DNA of 64,000 bases from Nageia nagi. Lineage: Eukaryota; Plantae; Pinophyta. This document shows positions 1-49,997 of the stretch, one piece after another. The position numbers were made by a program, and so were the translations under genes. Every line of letters starts with the position of its first letter. Position 1 is the first letter of the stretch. Location of the stretch: positions 30,070,001-30,134,000 of the forward strand of contig JBITNC010000002.1 in assembly GCA_050084985.1 (NCBI GenBank), written 5' to 3'. The notes beneath the pieces are model-generated. The model saw nothing but the letters and a program-made list of their open reading frames with translations. It searched no databases and was not told the origin of the DNA.

Positions 1-475
1 AAAATATTCTAAGCATGGGACGTCTGCTTCCTTGATCGCATCATTTTGGGGACATGCAAAAGCATGTTTCTCAAAACATGCGACTAGGGGAAAAACATGT
101 TTTTTCTTCAACAACTTGACCAGAATGACTTCTGAATGCAAATGCAACGAAGGGGTGTGAATTTTGCAGCATGTGGGACCTGAAAATGCAACTTTAATGG
201 CCAAAAATGCAAGTCTGAACATCGAAAATGCAGCATGAAGGAGGGTGCACGTTTTAGGGGACGTGCAAAAGCATGTCCCTCAAAACATATGCCTAATGTA
301 AAATGCCAATTTCTTACTAGCTTTCATCATGAAAGTGCAAATTTTGACATGTTTCCTCTAGCTGGACTAAGATGCATGCATTCTCTTAGACAAAATTTCT
401 TCTATGCATTCATGTTTGATTTTACGAGGGTCCTCAAAAATGCAAAATTTTGGTGGGTGTTGTGCAGGCACAACA
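1..475 (-). mobile_element. 5' end of a giant solo-LTR-like element (same family as 8459, 9349, 23305), continuing beyond window start
   Basis: Reverse complement of 425-475 reads TGTTGTGCCTGCACAACACCCACCAAAATTTTGCATTTTTGAGGACCCTCG, matching the start of the 8459 element; the same ACATGC-TTTT-GCATGT motifs occur at ~49 and ~259. Confidence 0.75.
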
Positions 476-9100: not shown

Positions 9101-12100
9101 AATTGCTACATGACACCTATCCACTTGAGCAAGTTTATAAAAGGAAGGTCAACTTTGGGATTTAGTTTGTTTGGTTGATTTTAGAGCATTGTGCTATGCT
9201 AAGTCTAGAGAAGCACATCCCCTAAAGGATGCGCTCTGCTTTGGATGGTAATTTTCAAGGTCATTTTCATTAAATATTAATTCGTTGCATTGGAGAATGT
9301 GCCGTGAGATTGTGCGCATGATTTTTAAAGTGTGCTTAGGCACCCACCTATTGTGCCCGCACAACACACCCCAAAATACAAGATTTTGGGGACCTTATTT
9401 TTGCAAAGGCAATGCGGTGCATTGCCTTGAGATTGGCTTTTGACGAGTTCATTCTGAAGACTGCAAACATGATATCAGGGAGCGATTCAAGGAGATCATG
9501 CGACGAAGACCCTGAAGAGTATCATAGTATCCAATCACCGATTTTGGAGCCAAGGAGCTAGGATCTAAGAGAGAGTATCAGAGAATGAATTTTTGGGTCT
9601 AGAGTGAAGCCAATGGAGATGGGGTCATTTTTCATAGTATGTGCTCAAAAATGGCTAGTATGGCGGAAAATGCGTAGTTTGAGCCAGAAATGATCGGAAA
9701 TGCAAAATTTGAGCCGAAAGTGATGGAATATGCAAATTTGGTCAAGTTTGAGCTCAGAAATGGTGGACATGGGTCCAGAATGCAAAAGGTATGCCCTAGG
9801 GCATAGTTTGAGGGTTTTAGTGATATCAGAGCCCAGGTTTGGACACATAGCTCCTAGGAATGGCAAAATATGAAAATTGTTCAAGAGATAAATGCAAATG
9901 GTGTCGAAAATCAAGTCCAAGAGCATCATTGGAGAGATAAGGTTAATTCCAACACAATTAGGACTTGAAATTTTTGATTTTGACCAAGTTTTGAGCCTTC
10001 CAAGCCTAGGTGCATTTTTTCAAGCCAATAGAAATCCAATGGGGCGAATTTTGGCGCTTAGCTACCAAGGAGAAAATGTCATTTGTCTCGAAAAACAAGG
10101 GAGATGGTTTGTTTGCATGTAAAATCCTGTTCTAAGGCACTTTAGGTGTACAAATTTTGATTTTTACCAAGGGAAGTGCCCTAAAATCTTAGGCACATGT
10201 TTTCAAGCCTATGGAAATTCATACACATGCATTTTGGCACCTAAATTGAAGGAAAAAAAATGCATTTTCACTAAAAGACAAAACCAAAGGCATAAATTGA
10301 TGGAAATGGTGATTTCAAGCATCTTTAGGTCTCCAAATTTTCGAATTTGAGCAGGCTTTGAGGCCCAAAAGGCTAGGTGCATGTTTTCAGCTGTATGGAA
10401 TTCCAATGGAGTGAATTTTGGCACCTAGCATGAGAGGAAACGATAAATTTTTGATAAAAGTCAAGTTTGAAGGCTTGGGTACAAGGAAAAAGGCATTTCA
10501 AGAAGGTTTAGGTCTACATTTTTATGATTTTGACGAAGTTTGAGCCTGTGAGGTCTCCCTTGTACATCTAGTGGGACCAGTCTGGTCATCTTGTACTATA
10601 CTTATTTTATGTACTTGCATTATGTAACTTAGGATAGGAGATTTAATGGGTCTAGTGGACACCACTATGAGCCCCAAGTGGGACGTCTCCCTCCTAAGTA
10701 ATAGATTAAGCATGTGTTGCATTGGAGATCCTAGATTGTGAGAATCCCAAGGTGTGTTTATGCATTAGAGTGATGGGTGGCCACCAGCATGCTAGCGCCA
10801 CACTAGGGAGGGCCCCATATCCCCATGTTGGCTCATGAGGACTTTAGGACCCCCACGTTGGCACTTTAAGTGCTAAGGACCCCATGTTGGCATTTTATGT
10901 GATCATGACCCCCACGTTGGCATTATGAGTGATCATAACCCCCACGTTGGCACTTTAAGTGATTGGACCCCCCAAATACCCAATGTTGGATTAGATGGGC
11001 CTGGGATGACTCCTAGGTGAGTTTCGGACACCAGTAATGTATAAATAGACATTGGAGCTTCAGTATTGGACAACCATTATTACACTTAGTACTCTACTTC
11101 GTCCGATGGACAAGACCTTAGTGGAATGCTAAGCGTATTCCTTAGGTGGAGCACCTAAGAGGGTAGTCAAGTGTTGGGATCCTGATTATATACGGCATTG
11201 GTGGAGCATCCCGAGGGTTTACTTCTACCGTTTGATTGGTTAGCCAGGTTTTGAAGAGGGCTCCTTCAGTGGAGAGGATTCGGGATTTGAGGGAGTGAAT
11301 CTATCTCGTGGTTCTACATCTGTTCAGTGTTTGAGATATCAGAGTATTGTGCCTTAGTTGACTCCCTTGAGGCCAACGATTGCCCATTGGCTTGGTATTG
11401 TATTGCATCCTTTGTATATCATTTATATACAGCTAGGGGGCTTCAGATCTCATTATTGTATTTGTACATTCCATACTTGTGCATGCGTTGGGTTGTTTAT
11501 GTTGATTGTACATGCATGAGCCAAACTTTGGCATTTTGATGTGCTATTCATTGTTGTATGCTTGCAAATGCTAGACTTTGGCATGTGGATGTATTAATCA
11601 TTGAATCTTGCGTGTTATACTTAGTCATTGGCATTTTGGGTACCTAAATGTGTAATCTTAATACCCTAACCCTAATGTTGCATGCTTGAGAGTTTGAATG
11701 TGTGAGTTGGATGCCCTAGACTTGACGTTGGGGCTTGATCATCCTATATTGCTAGTTTTTGGTTGAGTTTTAATTTTGGATCATCACAAGTGGTATTAGA
11801 GTCTAGATCTGGCCAGCTTGTGCATGAGACCCAGAATCCCCCGCTACTATACCAGATCTAGCAAAAGATGGATGGCATCTGCTAGGAAGAGCAATAGATC
11901 AGAGGAGACAACAAAGATAGCCTTCTAGGGTGAGGAGAGATGGCCATGGATGAATGAACCGCCGAAAGAGAGGGTTTCTAGAGATGAGGGAGAGGCACAG
12001 GGGGCGCGAGATGATAGGCAGAGGTCTTCCAGGAGGAGGAGCTCCACTTCGGTTCGGGGATCTACTCCTGAATGAAAGTTTGATGAGATCATTTTGGCCA

Positions 12101-15100
12101 TTCACAATATGACTAGAGTGATGAATTATATGGAACAGAAGATGACCAAACATTGGGGAGATCTTGATGAGCCAGAGAGGCGTCGTACACCCCCACGGTA
12201 GGCCAGGGAAGATCGGGAAGCACCGTGCCATGTTCGGGAAGAGAGGGAGCACCCACGTCTCGTTAGGGATGACCAAGAGACCCCACAAATGGCCAGGGAG
12301 GATAGGGAGCACCCACGTTGGGCCAGGGATGAGGAGGAGCAACGTTGAGCTATGGGGATGTTGTATATCCCATGTTGGAGTTGAAGGAGCTGGAGCCACC
12401 CATGTTGAGCCTAGATGTTGCTATGTGCCACACATTGGAACTGGAGGAGTTGGAGCACTTCGCATGGAGCATTGGAAGGTTTGGACATCCCACATTTGGC
12501 CTTGGGATGATGGAGCACCTCATGTGGAGCATTGGAAAGCTTGTGTCCCCCACGTTGAGCTTGGGTGGAGTTTGACATGACGATTGGAGCTTGGAAAAGC
12601 TTTACCACTTCATTTTGCATCTGGGAGGAGGATGTTGGATGGTGATGAGCCAAGGAGTGGTTTGGTGTCTCATGTTGGGAAGTAGGAAGGATTCGTGCAC
12701 ATTGATTTCAGCTCGAGGAGTTGGGGATCCCATGTGGAGGAGGATGAGAGATTGGATTGTCATAAGGAGCTTGAGCTCCACCTATTTACACTCACTCTTG
12801 TTTTCTTGTTTGCAAGAACCCCATTCCAAATACAACATTGCTTTGCCTATTAGTGAAGAGTTTTAGATTTGGACTTCTACATCAAAGGATTCTGGGAAGA
12901 CAATATATTACAATCTTCCACCATTGCTTGAGGGCAAGCAATCTTAGGAGGGAGGTTTTGTGACGTCCTTTTTGTATGATATAAAATATTTGTAATGGCC
13001 AAAAGGCCTATCATTAATGATATTCTATTTGGAGTGTGTTATGTTGTTACTTGGGATAGGAGTTTAGTTGGTCATTGGACCCACTGTGAGCCCCTAGTGG
13101 GACATCTCCCTCCCAAGTGTAGATTAGGATAAATTAAGTGTACTTGGAGATCCCGAACTTGATTTTGGGAATCCCAAGATCTTGTATTCCTTAAACGACT
13201 AGGAATGAGGATTGCATGCTTGCGCCAACCTTGAGGAGTCCCCTAGACCCCACGTTGGTCCATCCTTGACACCTAGGCTTCCATGCATGACACCTAGACC
13301 CGCATGGGCATGCGTGGCACCCCTAGACCCTGTGCTAGCATTTATGGCACCTAGGAATCCCATGTTGGCATGCCTGACACCTAGGAACCCACATTGGGCA
13401 TCTCGGGCCCTCTAGAGGCTAACGTTGGGGTCTTAGAGCCTAGTGATGATTTCGAGGTGAGATCTAGGACCTGGTGAAGAGTATAAAGAGACCTGGAGGC
13501 TCATTTGCTGGATAGACTTGATTATTATTACCTTTACACTTCTACTTCGTCCAATGGACGCAACCTTAGTGGAGCGCTAAGTGTGTTCCTAGGTGGAGCA
13601 CCTAAGAGGGTTGTCAGGCTAAGGGATCTTGGCAATCTACGACATATGTGGAGCACCTTCACCCATCCGATGGTATTATGAGGTGGAGTCTTTACGACTC
13701 GCATGGTTATCTAGATCTGAGGAGGGCCCCTTTGGTGGGGAGGAGTCAGATTGTGAGGAGGTGCTGCTATCCCATTGTCGAGCAACACAAGAAGGGTTTG
13801 TCCGGCCCAATTCAGCTCCCAGGAGGCTGATGTCAGCCATTTGGGCTTGGTTTTGTATTATTTCACATTGTTCATCATAATATAAGCTGTGGACACTTTG
13901 GATCTCAGCTATTGCATTGTACTTGTTCATATTTTGGCATCATTTGGTCTCATTGTGCATGTGTGTGTCGAACGTTGGCATTATTAGCTTGTAATAGTTG
14001 TGTATTGATGTATTTGGCTCATTGTTGGCATTGTGTGGTACATTAGTGCTTGTGAAAAGCCCAACGTTGGCATACTAAGGTTTGTAATGCATATTGTGGA
14101 TGCCCTAGTTTGATAAATTGTAATTAATTTCACTGATATTTGCTTGAGATTTGTTTGGATCATTACAAAATTGTTGCCTATCCATAATTTGCATAGCAAG
14201 TGGATGTATTCTGAGGATTTCTTCATTCTATGACATCAAATTAGATATTCTCATTCGAAATGAAGTTTGTGCGCACGTGTTGTGTTGTGTCTTTCTTTTG
14301 ATTACATTGGTCCTACTTGCAGAGCACTAACAGTCAGCTTTGCTCCCCGCTCCTCTTGAGAATAGATTGGACTTAGGTTATTCTATTTTTAGGTTGGAAG
14401 ACTTCAAATGAGATTTCTTGAATGATCCAGAAGTAAGAAACCTTAGACACTGCTTCACTGTGACCATTTCTTTGTCATCTCACTAGTATCAAAACATTCT
14501 TGTCCCCTTTTCTTTTCTTTATTTTATACTTTCTTTAAAACTTATAGCAACTTTCAAACTATTGCAAGATAAGACACCTCAGTCCCCATAAAAAACGTGC
14601 GTTAACAGTTACCACCTCTACTACACCACTTAGTTGATTCCCAAACAAGACCTACACAATTTAAAACTGATATTAACGACACGAGCTTTCCAATAGAAAC
14701 CTTGGGGTATCGGTCCTTACAAGAGAAGTTTAGTAACGCGTTCTCAACTACATGCTAGGTCGCTTTTCCATCTTGATTGTCTAGCCAATCGCCGAGTAAG
14801 AGGAAAGGTTTTCTTCCCAACACCACCCAAATCGGTTTGCAAGCTTCCAAATGTTCTGGCTCTGGGGTATTTTTTTGACTAAGTATAAGATTTTGTAAAG
14901 GGCCCAGACACGTTTTTTTAGGTACATGCTTTTGCAGCCCTCCAAAATGGTGCGACCAAGTTGCAAGGGTTTGAAGTGTGATGAAATTTGACTAAGTACT
15001 TTTTGATGCATTGAGTTGGTTGGCGCATGTATTTCAGGACATGCTTTTGCACATACCCAAAAATATGTGCCACCTCCCTAGCTTCGTCATTTGACCTCAA

Positions 15101-18100
15101 CATTGACCAATAAGGTGGTGACAAGTGGCATGTTTGAAAGTTATATATATGAGGTCACCCCTTGTACTATTTACCACTTCATTTCATTTTGCATCAAGTT
15201 CCCCAATTGCACCATTTTCGGAACGTGCTTAAGGACTCACTTAAATCGATTGGCCTAGGAGAAATAAGGGTTTGAGAAGGTGTTTGAACTGCCAAAAGCC
15301 ATTTTTCTAAGGGGGTGAGTTGGATCTCAGTGTCCGTTGTTGAAATTCACTTTGCATTTTTCTAAGGTTCGCCCTAAATTTGACCTATGCGCATGTTTTT
15401 TCATTAGTGCTTAAAGGATTCATCCAAATCTGTGAGCTAGGTCCGGATCCGGAGAATTGGCTAACTATTCATGATTATTAGGTGCATTTCATTCTCCTTT
15501 CATTTGTGCATGAAATTTTGAGGCGCATGCTTTGTAGGACATGAAAAAACACGTGCCCAAATTCATGCGCCCTAGAATGAAGTGATCTAACCTTCATTAT
15601 GGAATATTGCTGCCCTAAATTTGACTTCCCAAATTCGTTCGCCCTGGAGTGAAGTGGTGATCTGACCTTTATTATGTAATATTGCTGACCTAAATTTGAC
15701 TAAGTAATGTGTTCCTACATCAGGTGCCCATTCGCATGTTTTTCAAGTAGTAAAAGAGCATGTACCCAAATCCATGCGCCTTAGAGATTGTGAGCTGAAA
15801 TTGGCTAAGTATTGAGGAAGCTAGGAGTCAAAGGGCTAAAAAGATAGGTGGCATACATGCACTGTGCCATGCATAAACCCTCCATGCGACCTCTATAAGA
15901 AGGCTGTCCTAGTTCATTCTTGCAGGACGTTTTTGCAGCTTGGACCTGTACGTTTGGCCATTTTTCTACATTTTCCGGAACACATTCAATTTGGTGCTTG
16001 ACCCTTTTAGGGGCATTTCTAGCTAGAATTCCGACTTTTTACTGTAGTTTTTTGTACATTTTTCAGATGACTTCTAGAATAAGTCCTCCCCCACATAAGA
16101 CCAAAAAGATTCAGATACAACTCTTTGAGAGGCATGTCACAGATGACCAGATGGAGAGGATCATGAGGGAAAGTCAGATAGAGTTCCAAGAAAGAGAAAA
16201 ACCGGAGCTCCCTGAAGCCAAATTTAAAGGGAGATTCATTTTTGGTGGGGATATAGATTGGGGAAACGTTGACCCCATCATGACTATAACCGCCATTGTT
16301 TCCATCAACAAGGAGGACTTGTTGGATGAAGTCATCCATTCTTGTGGGCTATTTAATGTCACCATGATTCTTTTTGCCTTTTCAATTTCTAGTTTATGTT
16401 ATGAAGTTTCCAAATGCTTTAAGTATGGCAAGAGAGTTCTCTTGGACACCAAAGGGAATGTGATCATGTATTGCTCTCCGGAAGGGATCGAAGCCACCTT
16501 TGGCTGCAGAAGATATGGAGATGATTATACACTAGCCCATTTAGAAGAATTCCGTGAGTCCACTGCTCGGCCTGGGGATTATATTAGAAGATGGTTATGT
16601 GAAGTATACAAGAGCATCCAGGGCTAGTGAGTAATTAGTACTCGTAGGGAGGAGTTCCTTCCCATGGTTGCTAATTTGATCACTTTGTTGTCTAGAGTCA
16701 CAGGTCAGGAAAATGACTCCAAGTACAAAAAAGAGTTCACTTGATTTATTTCCATGATCAGCTCAAGGAGAGCTATCCGATGGAGCAGGGTAATCAGTGA
16801 TGCCTTGCGCCACCAGCTAGCCTACTTTGGCTTTTCTAGAAGATTCTACGTGAACTCTTACTTGGTGTATCTGTTGTTACACAACAAGTTAAGGTCGAGG
16901 GAGCATGTAGATGAAAGACATCTAGAAAAGAAGGGCACCCCGGTGTGGCAGGTTTACCCAAAGTGGTGGTATCATAACAAATTCAGGCATTTCTATGAGA
17001 GAAATGACCAGTGGGAGTATGCCATTTATAAGGAGATCAAGGGAGAGTCAGTAGTCAAGAGGGTCTTTGATGCTTCCGTCCAGGCCATAAGTGTACACGT
17101 AGATTTCTACTTGCAGTATACTGATCATACATACATCAAGGTCTATGGCTTGGAAGAACAACGCCTACTCCTACCTAGATACGCCAGTGACAGAATGATC
17201 CTCATGGAGTTTGCCAGATAGTTGTTGTTTTTCAAGGAACGAGTGTGGAGAAAGGACGCAACCATTAACTTGCCCATTTCCATTGCAAGTTATGTTTGCC
17301 AAACTTGGGTTGAGGCTAATAGCATGAAGAAGGGGCTACAATAGTATGTCTTCTTCAAGGAGGCAACAACTAGAAACTATGATCCTAGGGGTGTTATCAA
17401 CCGTTTCTACAACACCGCATTCGTAAAACCTATTGTCTACAAGCATAACTCTTTAGGGAATGCAAAGAAGTTCAAAAATGTGCGAGATGAGGAGGAGATA
17501 GCAAATATTGATACTCTTTGGAGAAGAAACAAAGCCCCTCTTCAGGTAGAAAAGGCACCTCAGAGACCCAAAACTGTGAGAGAAACCCAAAGAGGTCCTG
17601 TTAAGGATCAAAACATCCCCTCCTTCTAGAAGCAATGCACCTCCACAAGTCAAGGCATCCTTGCTTCCCATTGGAAAAAGACAAGTGATGTCGAGAGAGT
17701 GTATCTCAACATAGCCTAGTAAATGTAGTGTTGTGACCTACGAAACAAAGAAAAGCCAATAGGTGGTGGCTAATCTAAGAGATGCTGGTTACCATGATGT
17801 CCCTTTGCGCATGCTGGAGGAAGCTTGTGGTAATGATTCCCCTATTGAACAAACTCCATCGAGACCCACTTGTTCTCCTGGATGTAGAGAGAAAGTTCCC
17901 CCATTGCAGCCAATTTCCAGTTCTTCCAAAAACTCTACTTCTTCCTTTGATGAATAAAGTGGCGAAGAACCCGACTATGCTAAAGAAGGCTCGAAAGAAG
18001 AGACAGAGAGCCAAGGAGATGATGGAGAAGGCCGTGGCGAAGTGGAAGAAGAAGATGATGATGATGTAGATGATACTGCTAGTGAAGAGTACCCCAATCA

Positions 18101-21100
18101 AGAGAATGTAGCTATAGGTGCTTTTGCACCTGATGACACAGAGATTGAAACTCTCTCGGATAATGATGATGACCTGTTCATAGACGTTGAGAGTTATGAT
18201 GAAGAGGTCCATATTGTTGGAATGAAATATGCCAAGGAAGTAGGTTCTTCCAAACCTTCTCCTGTTGTACATAAGAAGACGTCACCCTCGTCTTCCCAAA
18301 AGCCCTATGTAAAGAGGACTAGCCATGAGAGATCCCCTCAATCGCGCAAGAAAGTTCTATCATTAGGTGGTGATGGTGAAGACGAAGAAGATGGAGAGAC
18401 TGAGGAGCTGAAGAAGAAGAGAATGCAGGATGAGCACCAAGGTGAGGAGGTTGCCCTTGTTCAAGCCACTCCAATGAAGGAAGTCAAGAAGATCAGAAAA
18501 GACAGAGTGCTTATGTAGAGGCTCCCTCCCAAGCCAGCTACTGAACATCCAAATCTTGACTTAGATGCCTGCCTAAGAGCCTTAAGCATGAGCCCGACTC
18601 ATGATGAAGAGATCGACCAAGACCTAAGGTTTGAGGATGAAGAAAAGGAGCTCTCTGATTGTGAGAAAGTCAGAAGGGTAGATACCTTTGTTTCTACTTC
18701 AAGAAAGGAGATCTCCATCAGCCACTATTACTCAACATCTACAGATACCTGAGGACTACATGATAGAGACGTTCAAGATGCTTGTTAAGTCTGATAGCTA
18801 GGAAGCATATAGTTACTTAGAATGTTGCTGTCATGGAACAAGAAGGCTATGTAGCTAAGAAGGAGGTGAGAAGACTCAAGAAGGACTCAAGGCTAGAAGG
18901 AAGATCATAAAAGAGTTCCAAACTGTTAGCACCACCCTTGTAGAGTTAAAGAAACAAGCCTCGTTCCATGCAGGATGGGAATTAATGAAGGACCTGTTGA
19001 AGAAAGAGATGATAGAGACCATTGAGAAGCTATCTTCTCAAGTCTCTAGCTTCCTTGAGGAAGGTGTTGAGATTTGGGAGTTGAAGTCCCAAATAAGAGC
19101 CCTCCTTGAGAAGCTGGATGGTGATCTCCCTACTGTCATCCATTTGTAGCAGATCTTTGCGGACAAACTTGAGAAGTTAGTATACTGTCATGAAAGTCAG
19201 GATCCCTTTGAGAAAGGGGGTAGAAGAGCAGATGAGTAAGTATGTATATTAACTGAAGTTTCAAGGGGAAGATAACAACGTGTGTAGAAAGGAAGCGGTC
19301 TTGGAAGAGGCTGAAAATCTAATCCAGGAACATCTTGAGGTCGAGGATCTCAACTTATTGAAGGCAAGGCAATCCATTCGTCATGAAAGATAGATGGTCA
19401 TCTAGAAATTTCAGATGCAGGCTACATCCAAGCAGATTGGAGACTACTTTAGGCAGAATGGCAGCATCGTTGGTATGATTTCCAAGGGAGTACAAAAGAC
19501 CGTGTTGTTCTTGGAAGAGACCATTGCGTCGTACGATCTCACCAACGAGGAATGGAACTCCATCGGTGCCGGATCAGATCTGGCCTAGATTTGATCCACT
19601 TGCAGATTTTGTTTGCGATTATCTTTTCTTTGTTTAATGCATATTGATGGTGGTTGTTGTATTCAGATTTTATTTACTTGATTTGACTGGTTTAGGGATG
19701 AGGTTTTGCTTCTGCCAGATCAAATGTCAGATTCATTTATGAATCTAACCGGTGCAGGGATGAGGTTTTGCTTCTGCCGGTTCATATGTCAAACTTTTAT
19801 TGCATATTTGATTTTCTTTTTACATAGATTAGAGGTAGATTAGACATTCCGCGGTTGTAGCATTTATATTTTGTCAGTTTTTTAAATGTCACTTGCATAG
19901 TTTTTTGTAAAAGATCAGATTTTGCATTGGTATGTGTGTTGCTTGTGAGCACACCATATCAGATTTGATGCCTTTAGGGCAACACTTCTAGTGGCCTATT
20001 TATACCCCACTTGGGCCACTTAGAAGGAGATTTTTGCATATGTCCATTTTTGCATAATACTGATTGCATGTATAAGGATTCTTGCGTACTTTTGATTGCA
20101 TAAGGATTTGCTGCATAAGGGACCCTATGCATATCATTGTTTCAGATCGTCATATCTTTGCTTCATGTTGAATATCATATTAAGAGCTTTGCAATCAAGG
20201 AAGGAATGCTTTTGTTTATACGGTTGAATATCATTGTGAGTTCATTTCCTTCTGGAATGGTTCTGTAAAGTAAATGCTGTGAAGGTTACCATTTGTGGGA
20301 TCATGCATCTTATCTTGTATGATTCTTTTGTTGGTTTGGATAGTTTTTATTGCTTAAGTGCATTCCCTTTGAAAACTTTGAGTTTTAAGAGATCATTGAA
20401 TATCTTTTGAAGTAGTTTAAATTGTTCATTGTATGATTTGCATATAAGTGGATGTTTTTTGTGGCGTATAGCTTATCTCTATGACGTTCAATTCGATTTA
20501 TGTATTCACATATGGTCTTCCTCTTTTCATCCTTTTCAATTGAGGCTCCCACCATAGACCCTACAGCTTCATGCTCTCGTCTGGTAGTAACTTGAGCCTT
20601 TTGCTATTTGATTCTTAGCTTGATTAGTGAATATATTTTCTTAAAGAATCTGGAGATGACCTGCCGAGACATTGCATCACTGGTGATGTCTTCATAAGTT
20701 CATTATTCACATTCCTATGCATTTATCCTTGCATTTGTGATCTTTCTTCGCTTTTGTTCACACTTGCAGTCTTTCCTCTTTGTGGAAACGGATTTTGACG
20801 GTGAATTTCCCTTGTATACGGTTACAACATGCATATCTATCCAATGTACCCTACTCCATATTCCATGTGAGCGGTTGGGGTAACCAGTCCTTTCAGGTGG
20901 AAACAAGTAACGCTGTTTCCTCAAGTCTTGTGCATGTTTTGGGTGAGGAAAGAAAAACATACCAACATAATACGATATCAAAGTTGATGGGAATGACATG
21001 CCTTCTTTCTAGTATATGTGAATCTATGGTTTTGAAACTGAAATGGAAATGATTCGGGTACAATAAAACTTGGATATTATTTTCCCATATATCCATTTTT

Positions 21101-24100
21101 ACCTAGAAATGTGGGGAGATCAATATGGTATAATATTTCATGGAGGTGTATCCAATGGGCTAACATTTAATGGTTTAAAACATATCAAACAGTACCACAA
21201 AGATCTTATAAATGCAATGATAATTTAAATATGAAATAATACTGAAAAATCGATAAATAAAATAAAAATGGTCATCAAAATCATCAATAAGGTTTAATAT
21301 TTCATGGAGGTATATACACAAGGCTAACGTTTAATGATTTTAAAAATATCAAACAGTGCCACAAAGATCTTTCAAATGCAATGGTAAAATAAATGCAAAA
21401 CAATATTGAAAATTTGATAAGTAAGATAAGAAAGATCATCAAAATCACCTCAACTACCTTTTGATTCTTCTCAACTTTCTGTGTCCTTTTCAATTTATTC
21501 TCTATTCAGTGTCTTCCTGCAACTGTTGGGAAATAACTCTTCCTGTGTTGTGGTATGCGGTTGTGCTATATTGTGGTGTTCTCAAGCCTCCGATAGATTG
21601 GTTTGTCAAATCCAGAAGCTTAGAAATTGTAAAGCGTATTAGATTTCCAACTTCAAACCTACGAGTAATTTCTTGGGTGCACTGTAAAGGCCTCCTGAAG
21701 TTTGGAGGAACAAGCATATTAGTCAAACTTCACGTCCCTACTAACCATGGTCTTCCGTTGTGCAAGAGCATAGGTCCAATAGCCCTTTGAGTTTTCACAA
21801 TAGCCAGAAAAAATTCCTTTGATGCTGGAGGGCTTAAACTTAGTCTGTTTCTCAACAGGCATGTGAATTTAAATAAGACTGTCAAAAACACGAAAATGAA
21901 GTACTTGAGGCTTCTTACTAGGAAAGGCCTCCTTCAATAGTTTGGTCTTTTAAAATTTTGTGAGGGCATCTACTCAAGATTGATGACTGTATAACACACT
22001 TCTGGCTAAAGAAACATAGGAAGGTGCATGTCATGAATCATGGCCTTAGCTCGGTGATGGATCTATTCTTCCTTGTTGCAACTCCATTTTGCTGCATGTT
22101 GTATGGTATTATGGACTCCCTCTTAATATCAGCTTCCCAGCAACAAGAATTGAACTCAAGGGACGTATAGTCTCCTCCATTGTCTGATCAAGGAATATTA
22201 TCACTCTTTCCAATCTGATTCTTGAGTAATGCTCTAAACTCTTGGAATTTACTAAAAACTTGATCTTTGGTTTTCATGGAATAAAACCAAGCTTTGTGTG
22301 AGAAATCATGAATGAAGGAAACATAGTAAAGACTACCTGTCAAACAGGGAGAGGACATGGGTCCACAAACATAAGAATGTATCAACTATAGAGTCTTTTT
22401 TGAATTTTACCCATTTATAGGAAAGGTAATCTTGGAGTATTTACCAAGTGGACAATCCTTTGCATACACCGTTCTGCTCAACTTTGATGTTTGGGAGTCT
22501 TTCCACCATATTCTTGAGAAGAGGAAGAGCTCCATGGTGCAAGTGATCAAACTGTTTGCGTCAAAGCTTCTTGTCACTGTCATTCACCAAAGTAGTCAAG
22601 TTTGAAGATCCATCTACGTGGTCACACTCTCTCAGACTTGAGAGATTAGACACATCAAGAATCCTTGAATCAAACAACCAACAAATGAATAAGCTTAAGA
22701 AAACCAATCATAGCTCCGACAACTTTATGAGGCAAATATTTGTTCCAATCATTGGAACACAACTGGTAGCATACCTGTTGAAATCCTCCACTGAAACACA
22801 ACTCCCTCTCTCAGTTTTGCTGATTTTTCCAGTCATTGTAAAGAAGATATTAGAAAAAATAGCTCTGATACCTTGTTGAAGTTTCAGAAAATAAATTGAG
22901 AAATATAAATCATACCAGTCTAAATCAACAAATGTTGCAAGTAGACGCTAACAAACATGCTCAGTAACAGCTGTAAAAATCAAAGTTTTGGAGTAGAAAC
23001 CAACATCGTTTAGATGAGAAAATTTTCATAAAAAGTAGAAAAACTAATGAGAATTAATAGCAAGAAAAACTTTGTATTATTTAGCAAAAAACTTGAACTT
23101 AAAAACTGGTATGTTTGAGACATCCTTGGCTGAATTTTTGAGCAAATAAAATCTCTTACAATCTCATCTAAAACTTGGATTACAATAAAACAAGCATGCT
23201 TTTCTTAAGAAAAACAAAAAAAAAAAAACTCTTTATCTTTAGACAACAGAAAACTCATCTAACCGTGAGTAATAAATCCATGTGACTAACCTAACTGTGG
23301 GTAGTGTTGTGCCCGCACAACACATCTCAAGATGTAGCATTTTGGGGACCCAATTTTTGCAACGGCAATGAGCAACATTGCTTGGGCATGATCAACTTAT
23401 GGCCAGTATGGAGACCCAGAACGGCCAGATGATCAAAGCAGTAGACGAGCATGCCTTGGAGTCATGAAGAGAGTTCAGCTCAGCCAGTGACCAAGTCAGG
23501 GCCTGGTTTCAAGTGACACCTCACAGGATGGAGTTGTGGATCACGACAACAACCAAACAGTGGAGTTTTGAACGAATGGCTATCAGGGCGAAAAAGGCGT
23601 CGTTTTGGCAAGTTTGAGCAACAAAGGTGCCAAGGTGACAAAAGATGCGTTTTTGGTCAAGTTTGAGCCTGGGAGTAGTGGATATAGTTAAGATGACAAA
23701 AATGCGCGTTTTTGTACAAATTGAGCCCAGAAAAGGTATCCACAACCAAATAGCACGTTTTTGTCAATTTTGAGCCCGAAAGTGGTTAGTATAGTAAAAA
23801 TGTGTGTTTTTGCATAGTTTGAGCCTGAAAAGCTCGAAAATGACCAAAATTGCAAAATTGAGCTCAAAGTGCTTGGAAATGGTCGTTTTGCACATCTTGA
23901 ATCCAGAAAGGCCGAAAATTTAGACTTTGAGTTCGAAATGCCAGAAATGATCATTTTTTCACCGTTCAAGCTCGAAAATGTCTGGATAGGTCGGAAATGG
24001 TCAAAATGCATACTTAGAGCCCGAAAACGTCGGAAATGCATCGGTTGGGCTCGTAAAAGACTGGAAAGATTGGGAATATGCAATATAGCCCGAAATGGAT

Positions 24101-27100
24101 GAGGAAAGCAAGTTCGAGTGCCCTTGAGGGGTAAAATAAACAAATGAGCATTTTGGCGTCTGAAAAGCTTTGGGTTGAGCTTGGAAAAGCGAGTTTTTTC
24201 AAAGTGCTCAGAATGAAAATCCAAGAGAGAGGTGTGGTGCCAAATGACAAATTAAGGCCACTTTGCTCTTGGAAATGTCGAAAAAACTCGAGTTTTGACC
24301 CCCAAAAATCTAGGGGGGAGTTTTGCAAGTTTTCCCTCACTTCACCAAATCTCGAAAATGGCCTATTATCTTGAAAACCTGCACCTACCTTTGGGGAGGT
24401 CCAGATTGATCCAAAAGTGGAATTTTTGAGCTTGGGAGTGTGGAGATTGCGATTCTATATCAAATTGGTTTTTCAAGTTTGCGATTTTGACGAGTTTTGC
24501 TCCACCGAAAGTGGAAAAAACAGGAAAATGAGCAAAAGGACAGCCAATAGGAATGCACCAATTTTTTCAAAATTTCAAAAATGTCAAAATGAAAATCGAA
24601 GGAAGAGGTAGGGTGCCAAATCCAATTTTAGGCACCTTTGCTCTTGAAATTTTCGAAAAAAAATCAAAGAATAGCCCTCAAAAAGCTAGGTGCTGGTTTT
24701 GCATGTTTTCCCATGTTTTGCCAAATTTCGAAAATGGCCTATTCCTCCCAAAACCTGCGCCTACCCTTCTTGTGCCCCAATATTGCAAAAAAAATGAAAT
24801 TTTTGATTTTCATGGCATATAGGATGGGATTTCACACAAGTTTGATGATTTGAGTTTTCCAAAAAAATGAGATCTACTTCCTCAAATCATCAAAATTTGA
24901 TCAGCCAATGAGAGAGCTCCAAAATTTTCTAAATTTTCCAAAATTGGCCGAATCAAAAAAGAAGAATGAGGTAGGGTGCAAAATCCAAATGTACGCAACA
25001 TTGCCTCTTGCAATTTTGCAAAAAAATCAATTTTTGACCCCCTAGAGGTAGGTGCTTGTTTTGCATGTTTTCCCCATTTTTCAAAGTTTCTCAAACTTGC
25101 CTAATTTCCCTAAAACCTACGCCTAGCTTGCAAGGGCTCATTTTTGCTCAAAAATTGAAAAATTTGGTCCTAGGTGCATGGGAAATCCAATTTTGCACAT
25201 CATTCATGTTTTAAGTTTTTTGAAAAAAGTGGATCTACTCCCTCAAAATGACAAAATTTGGATCAGCCAATGGGAGAGCTTGAAAAATTTTCAAATTTTT
25301 CAAAATTTTCAAAATCAAAATTGGAGAAAAAGGTAGGGTGGCAAATTCGAAGGAGATCAATATTGCCTTTTGCAAGATTGTAAAAAACTCAAGATTTGCC
25401 TCCCAAAAAGTTAGGGGGGAGTTTTGAAAGTTTTGGGCCAACTTCTCAAATTTCCAAACAGGCCCAAAGCCTTCAAAACTTGCGCCTAGCCTTCTTGGCC
25501 CTCAAAATTGCTGAAAAGTGACATTTAATGCTTCCATGTCATAGGTGGTGTGATTCTACACCATTTTGGTCTCTCACTTGTGCAATTTGGTCCATGAAAA
25601 CTCCCAAAAACCAAATTTTTGCATTCAAAAGGGATTCAAGGATTGAAAACTAAAGAATTTGGATATTTTTCCAAAAAATCTCAAAATTTGAAATCCAAAT
25701 TTGAAGTATGGAGGTTGAATAGCATCCAAAGGCCATCATTTTTGCTTCCAAGCACCCTCACTTTGCTTCAAATATGCTCCCTCTAGACCTAGGTGAAGGT
25801 TTTGCCATATTTCCCATGTTTGGCCATTTTTCCCAACGTTGGCAAGCAGGAGGAAATTCCAAAGTGCAAGTTTTGAACTTAGGGTTAATTTGGTGTTAGC
25901 ATGTGGCACTATTTGACCCCCTAAGTCTATAAATACAACCATACCCCCTCCATTTTTCACCAATCTCATTTTCGCACCCTTATTTTGCCAAATTGTTTGA
26001 GAATTTGAGAGCAAAGTGAGAAAGAGAGCCCATTTTCAGCCTTGGAGGATATTTTGAACACTTAGCACCATTTCCATTCACCCAAATTCCATTGAAATTC
26101 GAAATCCAACATCCTCCATCCCACATGAACTCCATTTTTCAAGTTTTTGAGGATTTTCAGACCAAAACCCCATTTTTCAAACCCACAAACACTTGAAAAA
26201 CTTTTTTTCTAGATTTCAAGATTGATCACATTTTTGGATACCCTTTATCCTTGTGATATGTGATATATGCACGAGGAGCTGTAATTAGAGGTGACACTCT
26301 CTCACCACAAAACACGCAAAGGAGGGCTACGTCTAACAAAAGGGCTTGAAAACAATTACGCCAACATCCACAAATTCGTGAGGAGTGCACATGACACCCA
26401 GGAGTAGAACCAGATTTGAGAGATCTTCACGATGAGTCCGGATGTTTGCAAAAATCCAACCAGCTCTGATACCATGTGAAGATTTGCAAGGAGAGCAAAT
26501 CACATCCAAAAAAGGAAATGCAAGAGCACCACAAGAATAAGAGAGAAGCTGAAATCCTCAAACTGAATTCACTACGGAATGAGAATGGAGTCCAAATAAA
26601 TAGGGAAAATACAAACTAATGGACAACAACATGCCAACCATGCGTGAAGGTAAAATGCACAAAATAACAAGGAAGTGGTTATCACCACAACAAACTAGCT
26701 AGAGAATAGAAAACCTAGGAAATAAATAAAAATACTCCTAAGTGAACTTAACACTCTAACATGATCAACTTCTATTTTCAGCAAAAAAACCAAAAAATAT
26801 ATATGATCCAAGATCTGAGTGCCCAAAATACTCATTTCTTCACAAAAAATTCAAAAACATCTAAAAAAATCTCCAAAAACTTTAAAATTTGTTTTTGAAG
26901 TCTGTTTTGACCGTTTCAAAGTTTAAAACACCTTCCCCGCTCATCTCCCATTCATCTAAGGTGTTAAAACTTGATTCCGGCATCATTTGGCGATTTTGCC
27001 AAATTTCACCATTTGTTCGTGTTGAAAAAGTCAACTTTTTGAGCAAAAAATTGAAAATTCTCCAAAAGTCCTAAATTTTTGCCATGACATTCTCCCCTGA

Positions 27101-30100
27101 GCTAGTTACCTTTGTGTTATCTTCAACTCACCCGAAAGGCCTTGAAAATTGCAAATTTTAACATTTTTCGATGATGGCACACTTGGAGTAAAAAACGCCA
27201 AAAAATCCAAATTTTCAAAAAACTCTCTTTGCCTGCCTAGAAAGTGCCATAGGCTTCCCAAGACTCTTCTAACTCTTGTTGTTCTCTTAGACCGGGACAA
27301 AATGGCATTAGTTGCTCAGAACATCAAAGACTGAAGCAGAGAATGCTCACAATGGACAACACCATTAAGCTCAAACACACAACAGAGCTCGTGATGCCTG
27401 CTGCAAGAATCATTGACCAACTGAGTGAGATTGGGGACATAGATTGTAACTCCCTTGATCCAATAAAAAATCTAATGCAAATACAGACATTGGATCCAGC
27501 TTCACTAGTGAAGGATACATTGAAAACTTCCTTGCTAGTAATAACTTATATGGTGCCATTTGCCACCCCCTTCCCTGAGTTGTGCTACGAGCTAGGGAAG
27601 CATTGTGATACTCGAAGGCGAAGACTCCTCGACGAAAAAAACGAGGTAATCATGGACTTCTTTGAGAAAGGAATAGAAAGCGCATTTGCTTGGACAAGCG
27701 AAGGCATATCGTACAATGTGCAGGACTCCTTAAGATTTTACAAAAGTCTGAAACCTCCAGCTGATTTGATCAAAGATTGGTTGGCCGATGACCGCAAGCA
27801 TCTCATAGGAAGAACCCTAGCAATGCCAAATAGAGGAGAATTCTATCTTGTAGTCTTTGGAATTCGCTGGGTTTATAGAGCTGATCAGCAGTGGTAAAGG
27901 CATAAGGTGGCCTTGGCTCAGCAATTGAAAAATATCTAGAGGAGCAAGAAATTCTATATGAACTCCTACCTGGTTTACCTACTCCTTCATGATAGGGAGA
28001 GGGTAACCTCAATCGCCAATACCAAGTATCTGTATGACCCCATACACCTAGTGTGGGAAAACTACCCACGGTTCTTTGCTCATAATAAATGGAACAATGG
28101 AAACTGGAAGATGATGATTGATGGTTTTGAAGGCAAAATCTATGAAGAGATCATGGGTAGAGCCAATGTACTCAGAATATCCAATGAAGTTGCTGTCGCT
28201 ATCAAGGGACATGCGGACTTCTTTGCAGAAGACAGAGTTCACCTACCTTAGGTTCTGGCTCCAAAGAAGCCCCTTATAAGCTACCTCGTTACGCAAGTGA
28301 CCGCCTCATCCTCATGGAATTTTCAAGACACTTGCTAAACGTATACGACAAGGTATGGGTAAAGAAGGCGGCGACCACTTACCAATTACCTATTGCCATC
28401 GAGAATTATGAATGCACCACCTGGCGTCAGATTGATATGATTAAACAAGAGCTGGCATTGTATGAATTCTCGACCAAGGTAGTTGCGGATCACTATGATC
28501 CCGATGGAGTGATTGGTGCATTTTTTTAGAAGACATGGAACTCATCATATCCACACTAGTCCCTTGGTAGCATTGAGAGGTACAAGAACATTTAGGACAG
28601 CCTACAGGTTCAACAAATTCACAAGGAGCTGAAGAAAGAACAAAAACAGTGAGAAGCCGAAGAAGTTGCCAGGTTAAGAGCTAATGCACAGGTCACCGCA
28701 CCCCTGAGCCATGGGTATATTATTCCCATAATATCACCTTCAGTAACCCTGGCTCAAGGACAAAATGAGCAATATGCTACCAATAGCATCCTCGAACAAA
28801 CCATTGAAACAACTGTCATGGGTACGAAGAATGGAATCCTAGACCTTCGAAGAGCAGGCCTAATCTCTCAACCATTCAAGCACTTGCAAAAAAAAATAAA
28901 TCTCCCGCAAGGTTTGAATCGGAGTGTTATGCGCCTGAATCAAAACCCTAGTACATCATCATCCAGTTCCGACAAGTATGGACTGAGTAGCTCGTCAGAT
29001 ACCTATGAAGAGATGGATCTTAGCTCAATCATCGACACCAACATGGTGATAAACCAAGATATTGCCTTTGATATGGTCGAAACTGATCATTCAGTAGAGA
29101 TCCTTAACGTAGGCAATCCCTCAATTAATATGATTGTACAACAAGCAGTAGGAGTAGGCACTCCAAAATTTGCTCCTCAGAAACATGCGTCACAAACACC
29201 ACCATCTCAAAGGACTACAAGAACATCAACATAGAAGGGTACATCAAGACCCAAAACAATGGCATCATCTTCAGGGGGAGATGATGGAAATCAAGAAGAT
29301 GAGGGAGAAAACAAAGAACTAAGAAGAAAAAGAAGACAAGTAGAGCATGATGTTCAAATCATCGAAGAGGGAGAGATGTTTCCTTATGGAAAACAACCCA
29401 TGGAACCCCGCTTGGACATGGTTGCAGTGATGGCTAATTTGAGTTCAAATCATCCCTACGAAAGAGAAGATTCCGAAGATGAAAATGAGGAACTTTAGCA
29501 GATTGATACTCTTGCTACCATTGTAGGTAAAGTCACCTACAAGGACAAGCTCTACTCCAGAAAGAACAAGGCTAGTACCGAAAAGTTTGCCCTCATAGTT
29601 GAAATAGATAGGCCCCTGCAGAGATTGTTGGCTTATTGGGAATGGAACACAACATCATCACAAATGCACGGGCATTGAGGGAATCCGGTACCCTATTAAA
29701 GCTAGAGATCTGGGAATTGAAGAAGAAAGTGGTGAGTCAGGAAATGGTTGACAGAGAAGTCAAGGATGCTAACTTGACAATTGAAGACATCAAAAAGTAT
29801 GTTGAATTAAACACTAGAATCACCGCCTTGAAACAAGAATGGACCAAGAACCTTATTGAGGCTATCAAAGCACTCCACTCAAACATGACAAATTTCTATA
29901 TTGAGGAGGAGGGGTCGCATTCTTAGACGGAGAAAATAGACTAGTTAATCATCAAATGGAAGAATGGGTACCCCATAATGTTTGACCTATGGAGAAGGGC
30001 AACCCATCATCCATTTGTGCTAGATTTTTGCATAGATTGGTTCCAACTGTATGATTATCTATTCTACATCAAAGTCAAGTCCATTGACTTCATATACACT

Positions 30101-33100
30101 AGGACCCAACTCAAAGTTGTTATTAGTGAGCAAGCAATGGAATATGAATTCTAGGTCCCTTTGTTTGAGGAAAACGACAGCATTAAGGAGTGTATGACGG
30201 TGATGACAGCAGTCCATGCCACCACTGCAAAATAGCTATGTCCCGAGGATCCACACAGCATGAAGACAGGAAGATAGATGAAAGGAGGAATCAAACTCGA
30301 TGCATGGTGCAAGGAAATGGTCAAAACCAATAAGGCCATCCTGGAGCACCTACTACCAAACGAAGGAGTCCTCCAAACAATTCACCAGGCCATCCAGAAT
30401 GTAAAGACATTCATGGGAGATGATTTTGAAGCTAAAATTGCATCAAATGTACAAGTCATCTTCCCACGATCGTCAGAATAGAAGGGTCTATTTTGGCGAG
30501 TTTTTGATATGTAAGCCAAATATTTGGCCAACTTAGTGGATTTCCACTAAGTCCAATTGTAATCTTAATTAACATTTCCAATTAGCTTGTGAATAGTTGT
30601 TAGTATTACAATTAGGGTTAGGGTTTTCAAACTCATTTCTAGGGTTTCAAAAGTCACTTTTAGGGTTTCCAAAACTCTATAAGTAAGAGACCAAGGGTCT
30701 CATTTTTGTAAGGACTTCATTATGAAGAAAACACTTCTTTTCTTGAAGAGAGATATTTTGAGAATTGAGAGCTTATTGTAAATCTTGGCACCTCCCTTTT
30801 CAAAATCTAATACAAAGTGGTTATGCAAAGACTTGAGTTTGACACTTTTCATATTGGTATTATGGATTGATTCTTTGAGGGCACTCATAGTTGGCTTGTG
30901 TACTTTCGTTTTATTCCTTTGAAAACTTTCAAGCTTTAGGGAAGTTATTTTTGAAAAACTTAAAAAAGTGCTTGAAGCTTACCTATTTTTGTTGCTTGAT
31001 CCTTAACACGCAAGTTGATTGGGTATTCTATGTCAGTTTCTACTTTTATGACATCTTGTTAGGTCCTTCACCCAAAACCATGATCCTTTCACTTTGAAAC
31101 ATTCTGTTTCCCTCCATTTGACGTTCCTCCTCGCTCCTCTTTGAAGCAATTCGAATGTGAAGTCGTTTGCTTGCAAGCTTGGATGAATTGGATGCAGAGT
31201 CCTTAACTGATTCGGAAGAGATTAACTCTTAGACACTTTCCCGTCAGTGAACCTCAAACTCATATCCGACCAAGTATCCATTCTTTCTCCAAGGTGTTGT
31301 CCTTCACCTTTACTGTATTGCCTTTATGCTTTCAAACCAAGTACAATCGTTAAATCCACACACATAGGTTCCGAATAAACTCTATACATTAAAGAATAAA
31401 GCATCGTTGGTTAACAGGCTACTATCTCTCATTCCATTCCATTGAGGCTAATTTCAAAGAGGGATACTGCACTTTCTTTATCTATCCCTAGACCAGAAAC
31501 ACTTGCCCAAGCATGAGATTTCGCTTGGCAAGCATACCTACAACGTTAGAACGTTGAGTCGTTGAGTAGGTGCTTCGACAAGAGCCTTGGAGGTACACAG
31601 TCCTTTTCAAATGGGGGCATTGGTAAGCATTCCCAACTATGTTGCTTGGGATCTCTTAAGTTTTGTGCACGATTTTCAGACGGTCTCACATGGGAAAGAA
31701 AAGCATCCCAACAGGTAGTAAATACATACAAACTCACTTAACCGTGTGTAGTAAATATGTACAACTCACCCAACTATGAATGGTAAATAAAACATCGGAT
31801 GGCATAGAACTCATCTTAGTATTGGCATAAGCCTCATCTGGGAGTTGGCAACATCTGAATTTGGATTTTATAGAAAACCTCTAAAAATAGGAAATGCTAA
31901 AAAATAAAAATAAAAGTATACTTTTAGTAAAAGTTCATAGAAAATTCCTAATAACAAATGTTGATCAACAAAAACTAACAGACATTGAGATTCTCATGGT
32001 TTATATGCATCTATAATTTTTCTTGTCCTTTTTGAAAAAGAGATCTTGCTAGGATGTACTACTATAATATGTAGTCTTTTGTGGGGATAATAGTAAGGTT
32101 CCTTATACCCTTGCTGCTTTGGAAATAATTTATCATTAGGATTGTCGATGATATTATTTGTATATTTGTCAGCGATTAGTACCTTAGATTCAGAAGGAGC
32201 AATAGTAACATATGAAGGTGAATGGACACAGGTTAGGGGGAAAAAGACAAAGAAAGGAGGATGATCCTACAATAAATTTGAGAAACACAGTTGGGAATCA
32301 AGTAATGGATGTTGATACTGTGACACCTCAAAGGACATTTAACAATCTGAGAAAGAATCCAAATGTTGGAAAAGATCATGTAGGTAGACCCTTAAGCCAA
32401 CAAGTTCGAAAGAAGAAGACAGAGGAGGACATAGCCAATGGAACAAAAAGAACACTAGAATTTTGTTCATCAACAGAAGAAGAGCAGGCCAAGTGTTCCC
32501 AGCCCACCTTTGGGCTGAGGAAAGGCTTTTTGGATTAAAGCTTTCGAAAGAGGAAGATGTGAATTGGCAACAGTTGGGGTACAATGCCTTTGTATCTTAG
32601 GATTTGAAATGTAGCAAATAGTTAGTAAAATAATTTAGCCTACCAACAGGTTACAGGTCGGTGGCATTTCATTTTTCAGAGCAGATGAATAGTAAATCAA
32701 GGTAGGCTGTTAAATGATAGCAGATATGTTTTGTTATGATCATCAGTAGGTTATTACTAGTGATAGTTTGATTTTTGGATGGTTGTTAGTAGCTTTGTCG
32801 TGATGTTTTAGCCACCAGTTGGATGTAATTGATGTATTGGTGACTATAATTTGAACATTTTTGGCTCAATTGTGGGATTTGATAAAACCCTCCTTTTTAC
32901 CCCTTACCAAAAAACAAAAAGTAGTCCCTTAGATTATGTGGTTCCTTTGTGAAATTCCTTGACAACATTGAGGTTTTGCATGAATAGTGTGGGCTTTGGG
33001 ACGAGCATATGCCAAGATATAATGGAATGTGTTGGATTCTCAAAGGGAGGATTATGATGCATTTCATGCATACCCTATCTTTGGTACCATACTTGTGGGT

Positions 33101-49995: not shown

Positions 49996-49997
49996 AT

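What the first reader, a model, noticed from the sequence alone, without database searches (positions are those of the whole stretch)
23305..31713. Giant gene-bearing solo-LTR-like element: a ~1,100-codon gene apparently encoded inside an LTR
Seen: this 8.4-kb unit has TGTTG...CAACA ends and a perfect 5-bp TSD (GGTAG), but no second LTR, no PBS or PPT of its own, and no gag/RT/integrase. It is built as 5' repeat blocks, a TATA (25928), an acceptor site then ATG, a long degenerate ORF (27302-30481), a second LTR-type TATA/TTTTGTAA signal (30678), and about 1 kb of tail. Established: TG..CA ends with 5-bp TSDs are the footprint of LTR-retrotransposon integrase, and solo LTRs retain the TSD. Plant extra ORFs (Ogre, Tat/Retand, Athila, SIRE) normally lie between the LTRs, whereas U3-encoded genes are known from retroviruses (MMTV sag). 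Inference: either this Gypsy-like family has ~7-8 kb LTRs with an accessory gene in U3, so that every solo LTR leaves a whole gene behind, or it is a non-autonomous unit mobilised in trans.
Basis: partly seen in the sequence, partly recalled or inferred. Interest (0 to 1): 0.88.

Follow-up and report, generated by a model that had tools for sequence, protein, structure and literature searches.

The report
Giant LTR carrying VANC-fold gene
An 8.4-kb plant repeat with retrotransposon-type ends and no partner repeat carries a decayed but formerly conserved gene of about 1,060 codons that is predicted to fold like the transposon anti-silencing protein VANC; it is likely the giant terminal repeat left behind by a retrotransposon, which would be an unusual place for a plant transposon gene.

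Summary
Unit A (23305-31713) has TGTTG..CAACA ends, an exact 5-bp TSD, no internal LTR pair and no PBS of its own; 508 bp of it is a later insertion. None of 9 3' ends read in long context is followed by a PBS. Units share termini and a TATA module about 1 kb from the 3' end, but differ in 5' repeats and cargo. The ORF evolved under purifying selection (dN/dS 0.25), has 119 homologs (some named in Taxus chinensis) and no Pfam match. A confident model of one homolog matches only VANC21 (Z 8.1, next 2.8). Best reading: solo copies of a 7-8 kb LTR of a gymnosperm Tat-like retrotransposon with a VANC/PMD-fold DNA-binding gene in U3, likely anti-silencing. No full-length parent was seen, so a unit that moves singly is not excluded.

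The parts
23300..23304 (.). Left target-site duplication GGTAG
   Evidence: sequence
23305..23322 (+). 5' terminus; itself a palindrome TGTTGTGC-NN-GCACAACA, shared with units B, C, D
23323..24194 (+). 5' block with short degenerate repeats; about 60% like the 5' block of unit B
24195..25590 (+). About four degenerate copies of a 362-378 bp repeat (U3-like array; candidate binding sites, untested)
   Evidence: families D7, D9, D11, D12
25928..25935 (+). First TATA box (likely promoter of the ORF)
   Evidence: ORF-less nested unit in L064 has a TATA at the like place
26254..26761 (-). Later 508-bp TG..CA insertion: short LTR plus Met-type PBS (26463-26474) and leader; not part of the family
   Evidence: joint and loose ends; I18
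27266..27290 (+). Pyrimidine tract and AG, splice-acceptor-like, 11 bases before the ATG (use not tested)
   Evidence: unit C has CAG|ATG at the like place
27302..28680 (+). Broken ORF, N-terminal conserved domain (about 450 aa), predicted VANC/DUF1985/PMD-like fold
   Evidence: dN/dS 0.19
28681..29609 (+). Broken ORF, Ser/Thr/Gln-rich and acidic linker
   Evidence: dN/dS 0.39 for the first 199 codons
29610..30481 (+). Broken ORF, C-terminal part, no family match
   Evidence: dN/dS 0.25
30613..30711 (+). Three TAGGGTT words, second TATA (30678) and TTTTGTAA: likely core LTR promoter
   Evidence: TATA-type word in 7 of 7 tails, TAGGGTT before it in 6 of 7
30712..31713 (+). R/U5-like tail ending GGAAAG..CCCAACA; homologous to tails of B and C
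31714..31718 (.). Right target-site duplication GGTAG
   Evidence: sequence
22874..31980 (-). Host Copia LTR split by unit A (its PBS at about 22862-22873, integrase remnants to the left)
8459..20967 (+). Unit C: second complete member, TSD TAATA, about 7.0 kb without nested B; homologous ORF about 16067-19590; different 5' repeats
   Evidence: (tblastx E 1e-53)
9349..14822 (+). Unit B: third member, TSD CCACC, nested in C; middle replaced by a foreign LTR insert (10547-14167), no ORF, no second TATA
1..475 (-). Unit D: 5' end of a fourth member (C-type repeats), cut by the window edge

Best explanation
Unit A is one of many single TG..CA units with 5-bp TSDs and is likely the solo remnant of a 7-8 kb LTR of a gymnosperm Tat/Ogre-like Gypsy retrotransposon, whose U3 holds a purifying-selected gene predicted to encode a VANC/PMD-fold DNA-binding protein that likely counters silencing of the family. 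Shown: ends, TSDs, family, shared 3' TATA module, selection on the ORF, no PBS or PPT at any junction read. Predicted: the fold (model of homolog P0024). Inferred: a full-length parent LTR-PBS-gag-pol-PPT-LTR inserts through its integrase; the second TATA starts the genomic RNA, the first TATA starts a separate mRNA for the accessory gene; being in U3, the gene is copied into both LTRs at each reverse transcription; recombination between two 8-kb repeats readily removes gag-pol and leaves one LTR, TSD and gene, which then decays. Inferred function: the protein binds the subfamily-specific repeat arrays upstream of its own promoter and keeps the LTR active, also in trans, so ORF-less derivatives can spread. 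Odds: giant LTR about 0.7; VANC/PMD fold about 0.8; anti-silencing role about 0.5.
For: Exact 5-bp TSDs and TG..CA ends in A, B, C (B starts TA). Only 5 bp of terminal inverted repeat, as in LTRs. TATA-type word 914-1037 bp from the 3' end in 7 of 7 tails from three subfamilies. dN/dS A vs L003 0.25 over 910 codons (bootstrap 0.20-0.32); shifted-frame controls 0.88 and 0.93; L003 vs L065 0.21. 119 homologs at E<=0.001, one an unbroken 1,010-aa protein. Model of P0024, pLDDT 85.9, matches VANC21-DNA at Z 8.1, rmsd 4.4, 235 residues, next of 48,161 chains Z 2.8 (Z 8.0). P0024 aligns to A at E 4e-9 and to L003 at E 9e-28. PMD is structurally like VANC DUF1985 (10.1101/2024.09.27.615353; PMC13547354) and is in 57% of Ogre elements (PMC6317226). 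VANC targets form tandem repeats that differ between related elements (PMC5735166); here A, C/D and the L003/L064 nested units each have their own 5' repeats. ORF-less derivatives keep both termini (L064 9609-7027; L054, whose ORF deletion has a matching joint 27330-30305 in 2 of 4 runs).
Against: No full-length parent seen. 0 of 9 3' ends in long context have a PBS (one TGG is host sequence) and 0 of 6 5' ends have a purine tract (6-9 purines in 15). With A left out, this has probability 0.04 at a solo:full ratio of 2.8, 0.14 at 5.5, 0.31 at 10 (0.005, 0.04, 0.14 if nine short contig ends are added), so the reading needs a ratio well above the genome-wide values printed for Cupressus (2.8) and Taxus (5.5). 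Foldseek alone gave VANC21 only E 1.7, TM 0.25; Z 8 is near the tool's caution line for helical folds; identity is 6%. The model is of a homolog whose DNA context is unknown; the model of the L003 copy was poor (pLDDT 39). Lineage (Tat/Ogre) rests on the cargo fold, 5-bp TSD and recalled terminal motifs, not on RT. The repeat motifs counted were taken from the units themselves, so only their absence from other subfamilies is informative. No binding, methylation or expression data.
Confidence: 0.55

Rival explanations
1. The units never had an internal region: they are whole elements that move singly as DNA, cut or copied at their TG..CA ends by an integrase-type enzyme supplied in trans, and carry a VANC-like gene as their only cargo.
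For: All 4 units with both ends read are single (A, B, C, L064 nested); 0 of 9 long-context 3' ends and 0 of 7 loose-end rows show a clean PBS; internal deletion series with kept termini; conserved 18-bp palindrome at the 5' end; VANC itself belongs to a DNA transposon.
Against: Terminal inverted repeat only 5 bp; no transposase or integrase in the unit; a conserved promoter 1 kb from the 3' end, pointing out of the unit, fits an LTR and has no clear use otherwise; sample of junctions is small and compatible with a solo ratio of 10 or more; one search needed 85% likeness to A's own decayed end and laid only 20 contigs.
Confidence: 0.15
2. Giant LTR as above, but the VANC/PMD-fold protein has another role (for example recruiting chromatin factors, guiding integration or damping transcription) rather than removing silencing.
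For: Same fold is used by MAIN/MAIL1, first described as needed for silencing (PMC5418596) and later as opposing Polycomb; 6% identity to VANC21 says nothing about function.
Against: Gene sits directly behind subfamily-specific repeat arrays, the arrangement expected of a self-binding factor; selection on a transposon-borne gene implies benefit to the element.
Confidence: 0.22
3. A is an ordinary non-autonomous LTR element (LARD-like) with two short LTRs that have decayed beyond recognition and an extra ORF between them.
For: Two TATA boxes in one unit; extra ORFs normally lie between LTRs (PMC6317226; PMC3485330).
Against: Each end is 77-84% identical between copies yet the two ends of one unit share nothing, in A, B and C alike; no PBS or PPT inside.
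Confidence: 0.03

Closest known systems
Tat-clade Gypsy elements (Ogre, Retand, gymnosperm TatII/TatIII) with extra ORFs
   Same: TG..CA ends, 5-bp TSD (TatIII 92%, TatII 51%; PMC6317226 supplement rows), very long LTRs (up to about 5 kb), tandem repeats, accessory ORFs often with PMD
   Different: There the extra ORF is classed as 5' or 3' of gag-pol; here it lies inside the single terminal-repeat-like unit, which is 7-8 kb; no Pfam PMD, Transposase_28 or Athila ORF-1 match; no RT seen
VANC of VANDAL Mutator-like elements (VANC21, PDB 9LNK/9LNJ)
   Same: Predicted fold of the N-terminal domain; transposon-borne gene beside fast-changing tandem repeats
   Different: VANC is in DNA transposons of dicots; 6% identity; binding and demethylation untested here
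PMD-A proteins of angiosperm Gypsy elements; MAIN/MAIL1
   Same: Same fold group by published comparisons; PMD-A is Gypsy-encoded
   Different: No sequence match to the Pfam PMD model; gymnosperm family; position in U3
Rice Retrosat2/RIRE3/RIRE8
   Same: LTRs over 3 kb, many solo LTRs (429 vs 162 complete), an extra ORF0 (PMC3485330)
   Different: ORF0 lies upstream of gag-pol as a separate internal ORF; chromovirus lineage
Retroviral genes in or overlapping U3 (MMTV sag, HIV nef; recalled, no call)
   Same: Gene duplicated with the LTR
   Different: Far smaller; animal retroviruses; unrelated proteins

Membership tests
Solo LTR of an LTR retrotransposon | TG..CA ends with a 4-6 bp TSD | tested here: met
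   A and C exact; B has the TSD and one changed base at its start
Solo LTR of an LTR retrotransposon | No second LTR, PBS, PPT or gag-pol within the TSD | tested here: met
Solo LTR of an LTR retrotransposon | U3-TATA-R-U5 layout | tested here: inconclusive
   Conserved TATA module about 1 kb from the end in 7 of 7 tails; no transcript ends seen
Solo LTR of an LTR retrotransposon | Same sequence occurs as paired LTRs of a full-length element | tested here: inconclusive
   0 of 9 long-context 3' ends with PBS; no genome held
Tat clade (Ogre/Retand/TatI-III) | RT/INT phylogeny and additional RNase H | not testable with these tools
   No internal region recovered
Tat clade (Ogre/Retand/TatI-III) | PBS type (Arg, Asp, Asn, His) | tested here: inconclusive
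   No PBS junction found
LARD/TRIM non-autonomous LTR element | Two LTRs with PBS and PPT | tested here: not met
VANC/DUF1985/PMD fold group | Structural match to VANC21 | tested here: met
   Homolog P0024 model: Z 8.1, rmsd 4.4, 235 aligned, next Z 2.8; moderate strength, Foldseek E 1.7
VANC/DUF1985/PMD fold group | Pfam DUF1985 or PMD sequence match | tested here: not met
   No such family listed for 9 proteins or 17
VANC anti-silencing system | Sequence-specific binding to the element's repeats and loss of methylation | not testable with these tools
   No binding or methylome data
Mutator-like DNA transposon (VANDAL) | About 9-bp TSD (recalled) and MuDR transposase | tested here: not met
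   TSD exactly 5 bp in 3 of 3; no transposase family
Ginger-type integrase DNA transposon | Integrase ORF and long terminal inverted repeats (recalled) | tested here: not met
   Only 5 bp inverted at the ends; no integrase match

The most novel reading that the evidence does not exclude
These units are not LTR remnants but a new class of plant element: single, LTR-shaped DNA units that move intact by a borrowed integrase-type enzyme and encode only a VANC-like protein that binds their own repeats and keeps them unsilenced.
Probability: 0.13. Interest if true: 0.88.

Novelty: new variant of a known kind. Interest (0 to 1): 0.66.

Why it matters
If the best reading is right, a high-copy gymnosperm retrotransposon lineage keeps a full gene inside a 7-8 kb LTR. 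It also gives a direct test of an open question, what Gypsy accessory ORFs do: each subfamily pairs a VANC-fold protein with its own repeat array, so binding specificity can be tested pair by pair, which would extend VANC-type anti-silencing from dicot DNA transposons to retrotransposons.

Tried and rejected
No own genome; record behind L064 not held. No RNA holder listed among public runs, so expression and splicing are open. Pattern or protein scans of viral contigs (one locus, no match to the window) and genome contigs gave no relative. 71 of 75 metagenome loci were chance matches. Pfam gave no family above cut-off for the ORF or 17 homologs; PDB sequence search with profile A3 gave one hit at E 0.19; viral fold library nothing at E<=0.001. 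First fold (8-row alignment, L003 copy) pLDDT 39, not searched. Word-index homolog searches found 1, 5 and 3 proteins. No atlas result was obtained. One flank seen in two runs behind 31711 resembles a Met PBS at 9 of 12 letters but starts two bases before the terminal CA; read as a changed terminal base plus a shared flank, not excluded as a decayed PBS. B as a natural mini-element: rejected, its loss coincides with a foreign insert whose two LTRs are only 63% alike and lack a matching TSD. CpG/CHG depletion along A gave no clear signal. Earlier scan notes: nothing. Literature: searches listed no report of an ORF inside a plant LTR or of this family; two phrase searches returned 0 papers; the library lacks most subscription papers, the VANC21 structure paper was not held and preprint supplements could not be seen.
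Full report
Observation. Unit A runs from 23305 to 31713 with TGTTG and CAACA ends and an exact 5-bp duplication GGTAG. It interrupts the LTR of a minus-strand Copia element whose short repeat continues across the site. Its two ends share no repeat (score 44 vs shuffle max 55; best blastn 18 bp). The ORF spans 1,060 codons and is broken by 13 stops in four frame segments and several frame shifts. A 508-bp piece (26254-26761) is a later insertion, absent from other copies; it holds the only PBS-like word inside A.

It is a family. A fuzzy search for the termini found three more members in the window: C (8459-20967, TSD TAATA, homologous ORF, tblastx E 1e-53), B (9349-14822, TSD CCACC, nested in C, middle lost at a foreign insert) and D (5' end at 475, cut by the edge). 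B and C were delimited by likeness to A, so their TSDs are independent tests (0.0014 each by chance). Contigs of 4 of 4 laid public runs cover every bin of A, with summed depth of 100 to 6,000 against 0 to 3 in the outer flank bins (not a copy number). A scan of metagenome contigs with the 3' terminus returned 75 loci, 4 of them true relatives (L003, L054, L064, L065; 77-84% identity to A for three, L064 like C). These hold six members: four ending at the pattern's own strand position plus, on the other strand, nested or adjacent units in L003 and L064 (one 5' end in L003; one 2.6-kb unit with both ends and one further 3' end in L064), seven if the last is counted apart. The whole nest in the window lies in a roughly 30-kb intron region of a WDR92 gene. 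Named homologs are Taxus chinensis hypothetical proteins (2 of 10 clusters looked up), so the host is likely a gymnosperm; this is inferred.

Shared anatomy. All members begin with an 18-bp palindrome and end GGAAAG..CCAACA or a near form. In 7 of 7 tails examined a TATA-type word lies 914-1037 bp from the 3' end, with TAGGGTT before it in 6 of 7 (B's tail is too short and was not examined). The 5' repeat arrays differ by subfamily: 362-378 bp repeats in A and L054, a shorter repeat in C and D, a palindromic repeat in the nested units (motifs were taken from the units, so only cross-subfamily absence counts, and C gave 2 loose matches to the nested-type motif). Cargo between the two TATA boxes varies: a full ORF (A, C, L003), an ORF with about 3 kb deleted (L054; a matching joint in 2 of 4 runs), or none (L064 nested).

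Junctions. None of 9 3' ends read in long context is followed by a PBS and none of 6 5' ends is preceded by a purine tract; flanks include a LINE remnant, a gene intron and other repeats (labels read by eye). Laying contigs on the 3' terminus gave 7 rows (10 contigs) of sequence beyond it, unlike one another except one flank shared by two runs; two rows are mixed consensus, and only 20 contigs passed the 85% limit. With A left out, no junction in 10 units has probability 0.04, 0.14, 0.31 and 0.54 at solo:full ratios of 2.8, 5.5, 10 and 20. Printed genome-wide ratios are 2.8 for Cupressus sempervirens (10.64898/2026.07.23.736688, passages) and 5.5 for Taxus wallichiana (PMC9364684, passages). 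So either parents are unusually rare, as very long LTRs would favour (inference), or they do not exist.

The gene. Pairwise dN/dS of A vs L003 is 0.25 over 910 codons (0.20-0.32; 16 stop codons skipped), 0.19 in the N-terminal domain, about 0.9 in shifted frames, and 0.21 for L003 vs L065: a real gene, selected while the lineage was replicating. A full HMMER scan with C's N-terminal 520 residues found 119 proteins at E<=0.001, among them an unbroken 1,010-aa protein with the same layout. Pfam names none of them. An alignment of 92 of the 119 hits plus three other rows (shorter and some closer fragments left out) gave a confident model of homolog P0024 (pLDDT 85.9). Foldseek ranked VANC21-DNA first but not significantly (E 1.7, TM 0.25; other listed rows TM 0.12 or less). 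VIA-align gave Z 8.0 and, against 48,161 chains, Z 8.1, rmsd 4.4, 235 residues, next 2.8. P0024 is tied to A by BLASTP E 4e-9, to L003 by E 9e-28, and the profile maps onto A at 27430-28679 (L003 is in the profile). The match is moderate, at 6% identity, and shows fold, not function.

Mechanism. A single unit without PBS or PPT cannot be copied by the standard LTR cycle, and a transcript from the first TATA could not restore the 2.6 kb upstream of it (established knowledge). The simplest source is a full-length parent with two such LTRs. The second TATA would start the genomic RNA; everything upstream is U3, including the arrays, the first TATA and the gene. Recombination between the repeats leaves a solo copy with TSD and gene. 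By analogy with VANC, which binds tandem repeats that change fast between related elements (PMC5735166, abstract and section 9), the protein likely binds the arrays in front of its own promoter and keeps the family active, in trans for ORF-less derivatives. Parent, transcripts and binding are all inferred.

Comparison. Tat-clade Gypsy elements have 5-bp TSDs, LTRs up to about 5 kb, repeat arrays and extra ORFs, PMD in 57% of Ogre, classed as 5' or 3' of gag-pol (PMC6317226, passages and supplement rows). PMD-A is Gypsy-encoded (PMC5418596, passages) and PMD resembles VANC's DUF1985 in structure (PMC13547354 and 10.1101/2024.09.27.615353, passages). Retrosat2 has long LTRs and an ORF0 upstream of gag-pol (PMC3485330, passages). 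The REXdb survey capped LTRs at 6 kb. PMC13477047 (passages) lists TatII/III as gymnosperm-specific and the passages shown describe nothing like this unit. Nine searches (listings only for papers not named above) showed no plant LTR with an internal gene; the library is incomplete and preprint supplements were closed. Likeness of the termini to Ogre LTRs and the retroviral U3 genes are recalled, from no call.

Verdict. A real, high-copy and apparently undescribed arrangement. It works like a solo LTR and is probably one, but membership is unproven until a parent is found. New variant of a known kind; interest 0.66.

Noticed in passing
window 3104-3822 and 36620-36895 (+): Exons of a WDR92 gene (last exon matches human WDR92, E 1.9e-6) enclose about 30 kb of nested transposons. 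WDR92 is recalled as linked to motile cilia, so its presence may bear on which gymnosperm this is.
   Followed up: partly
window 49498-58536 (+): Young full-length Copia element: LTRs 99.8% identical, unbroken 1,326-codon frame with gag, integrase and RT domains, and a 58/73-bp tandem array before the 3' LTR.
   Followed up: no
window 9349, L003 5002, L064 9609 and 11506: Family members often lie inside or next to other members (B in C; opposite-strand units in L003 and L064), suggesting self-targeting or shared insertion preference.
   Followed up: partly
window 23305-23322 and other 5' ends: The 5' terminus is an 8-bp inverted repeat round two bases, which puts a second CAACA at position 14-18; unexplained.
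   Followed up: no
C tail about 19990; L064 7940 and 12430: In C and the nested subfamily the 3' TATA word reads CTATTTATA, which is a TATAAATAG box on the opposite strand and could drive antisense RNA into the ORF.
   Followed up: no
window 10547-14167: LTR insert in unit B with two LTRs only 63% alike and no matching TSD; likely a recombinant of two insertions that removed the middle of B.
   Followed up: partly
window 62607-63689 (+): Ankyrin-repeat ORF (Pfam Ank_2 E 1e-42).
   Followed up: no
window 44319-44954 (-): Chromovirus-type integrase tail remnant (SH3_Tf2-1, weak chromodomain).
   Followed up: no
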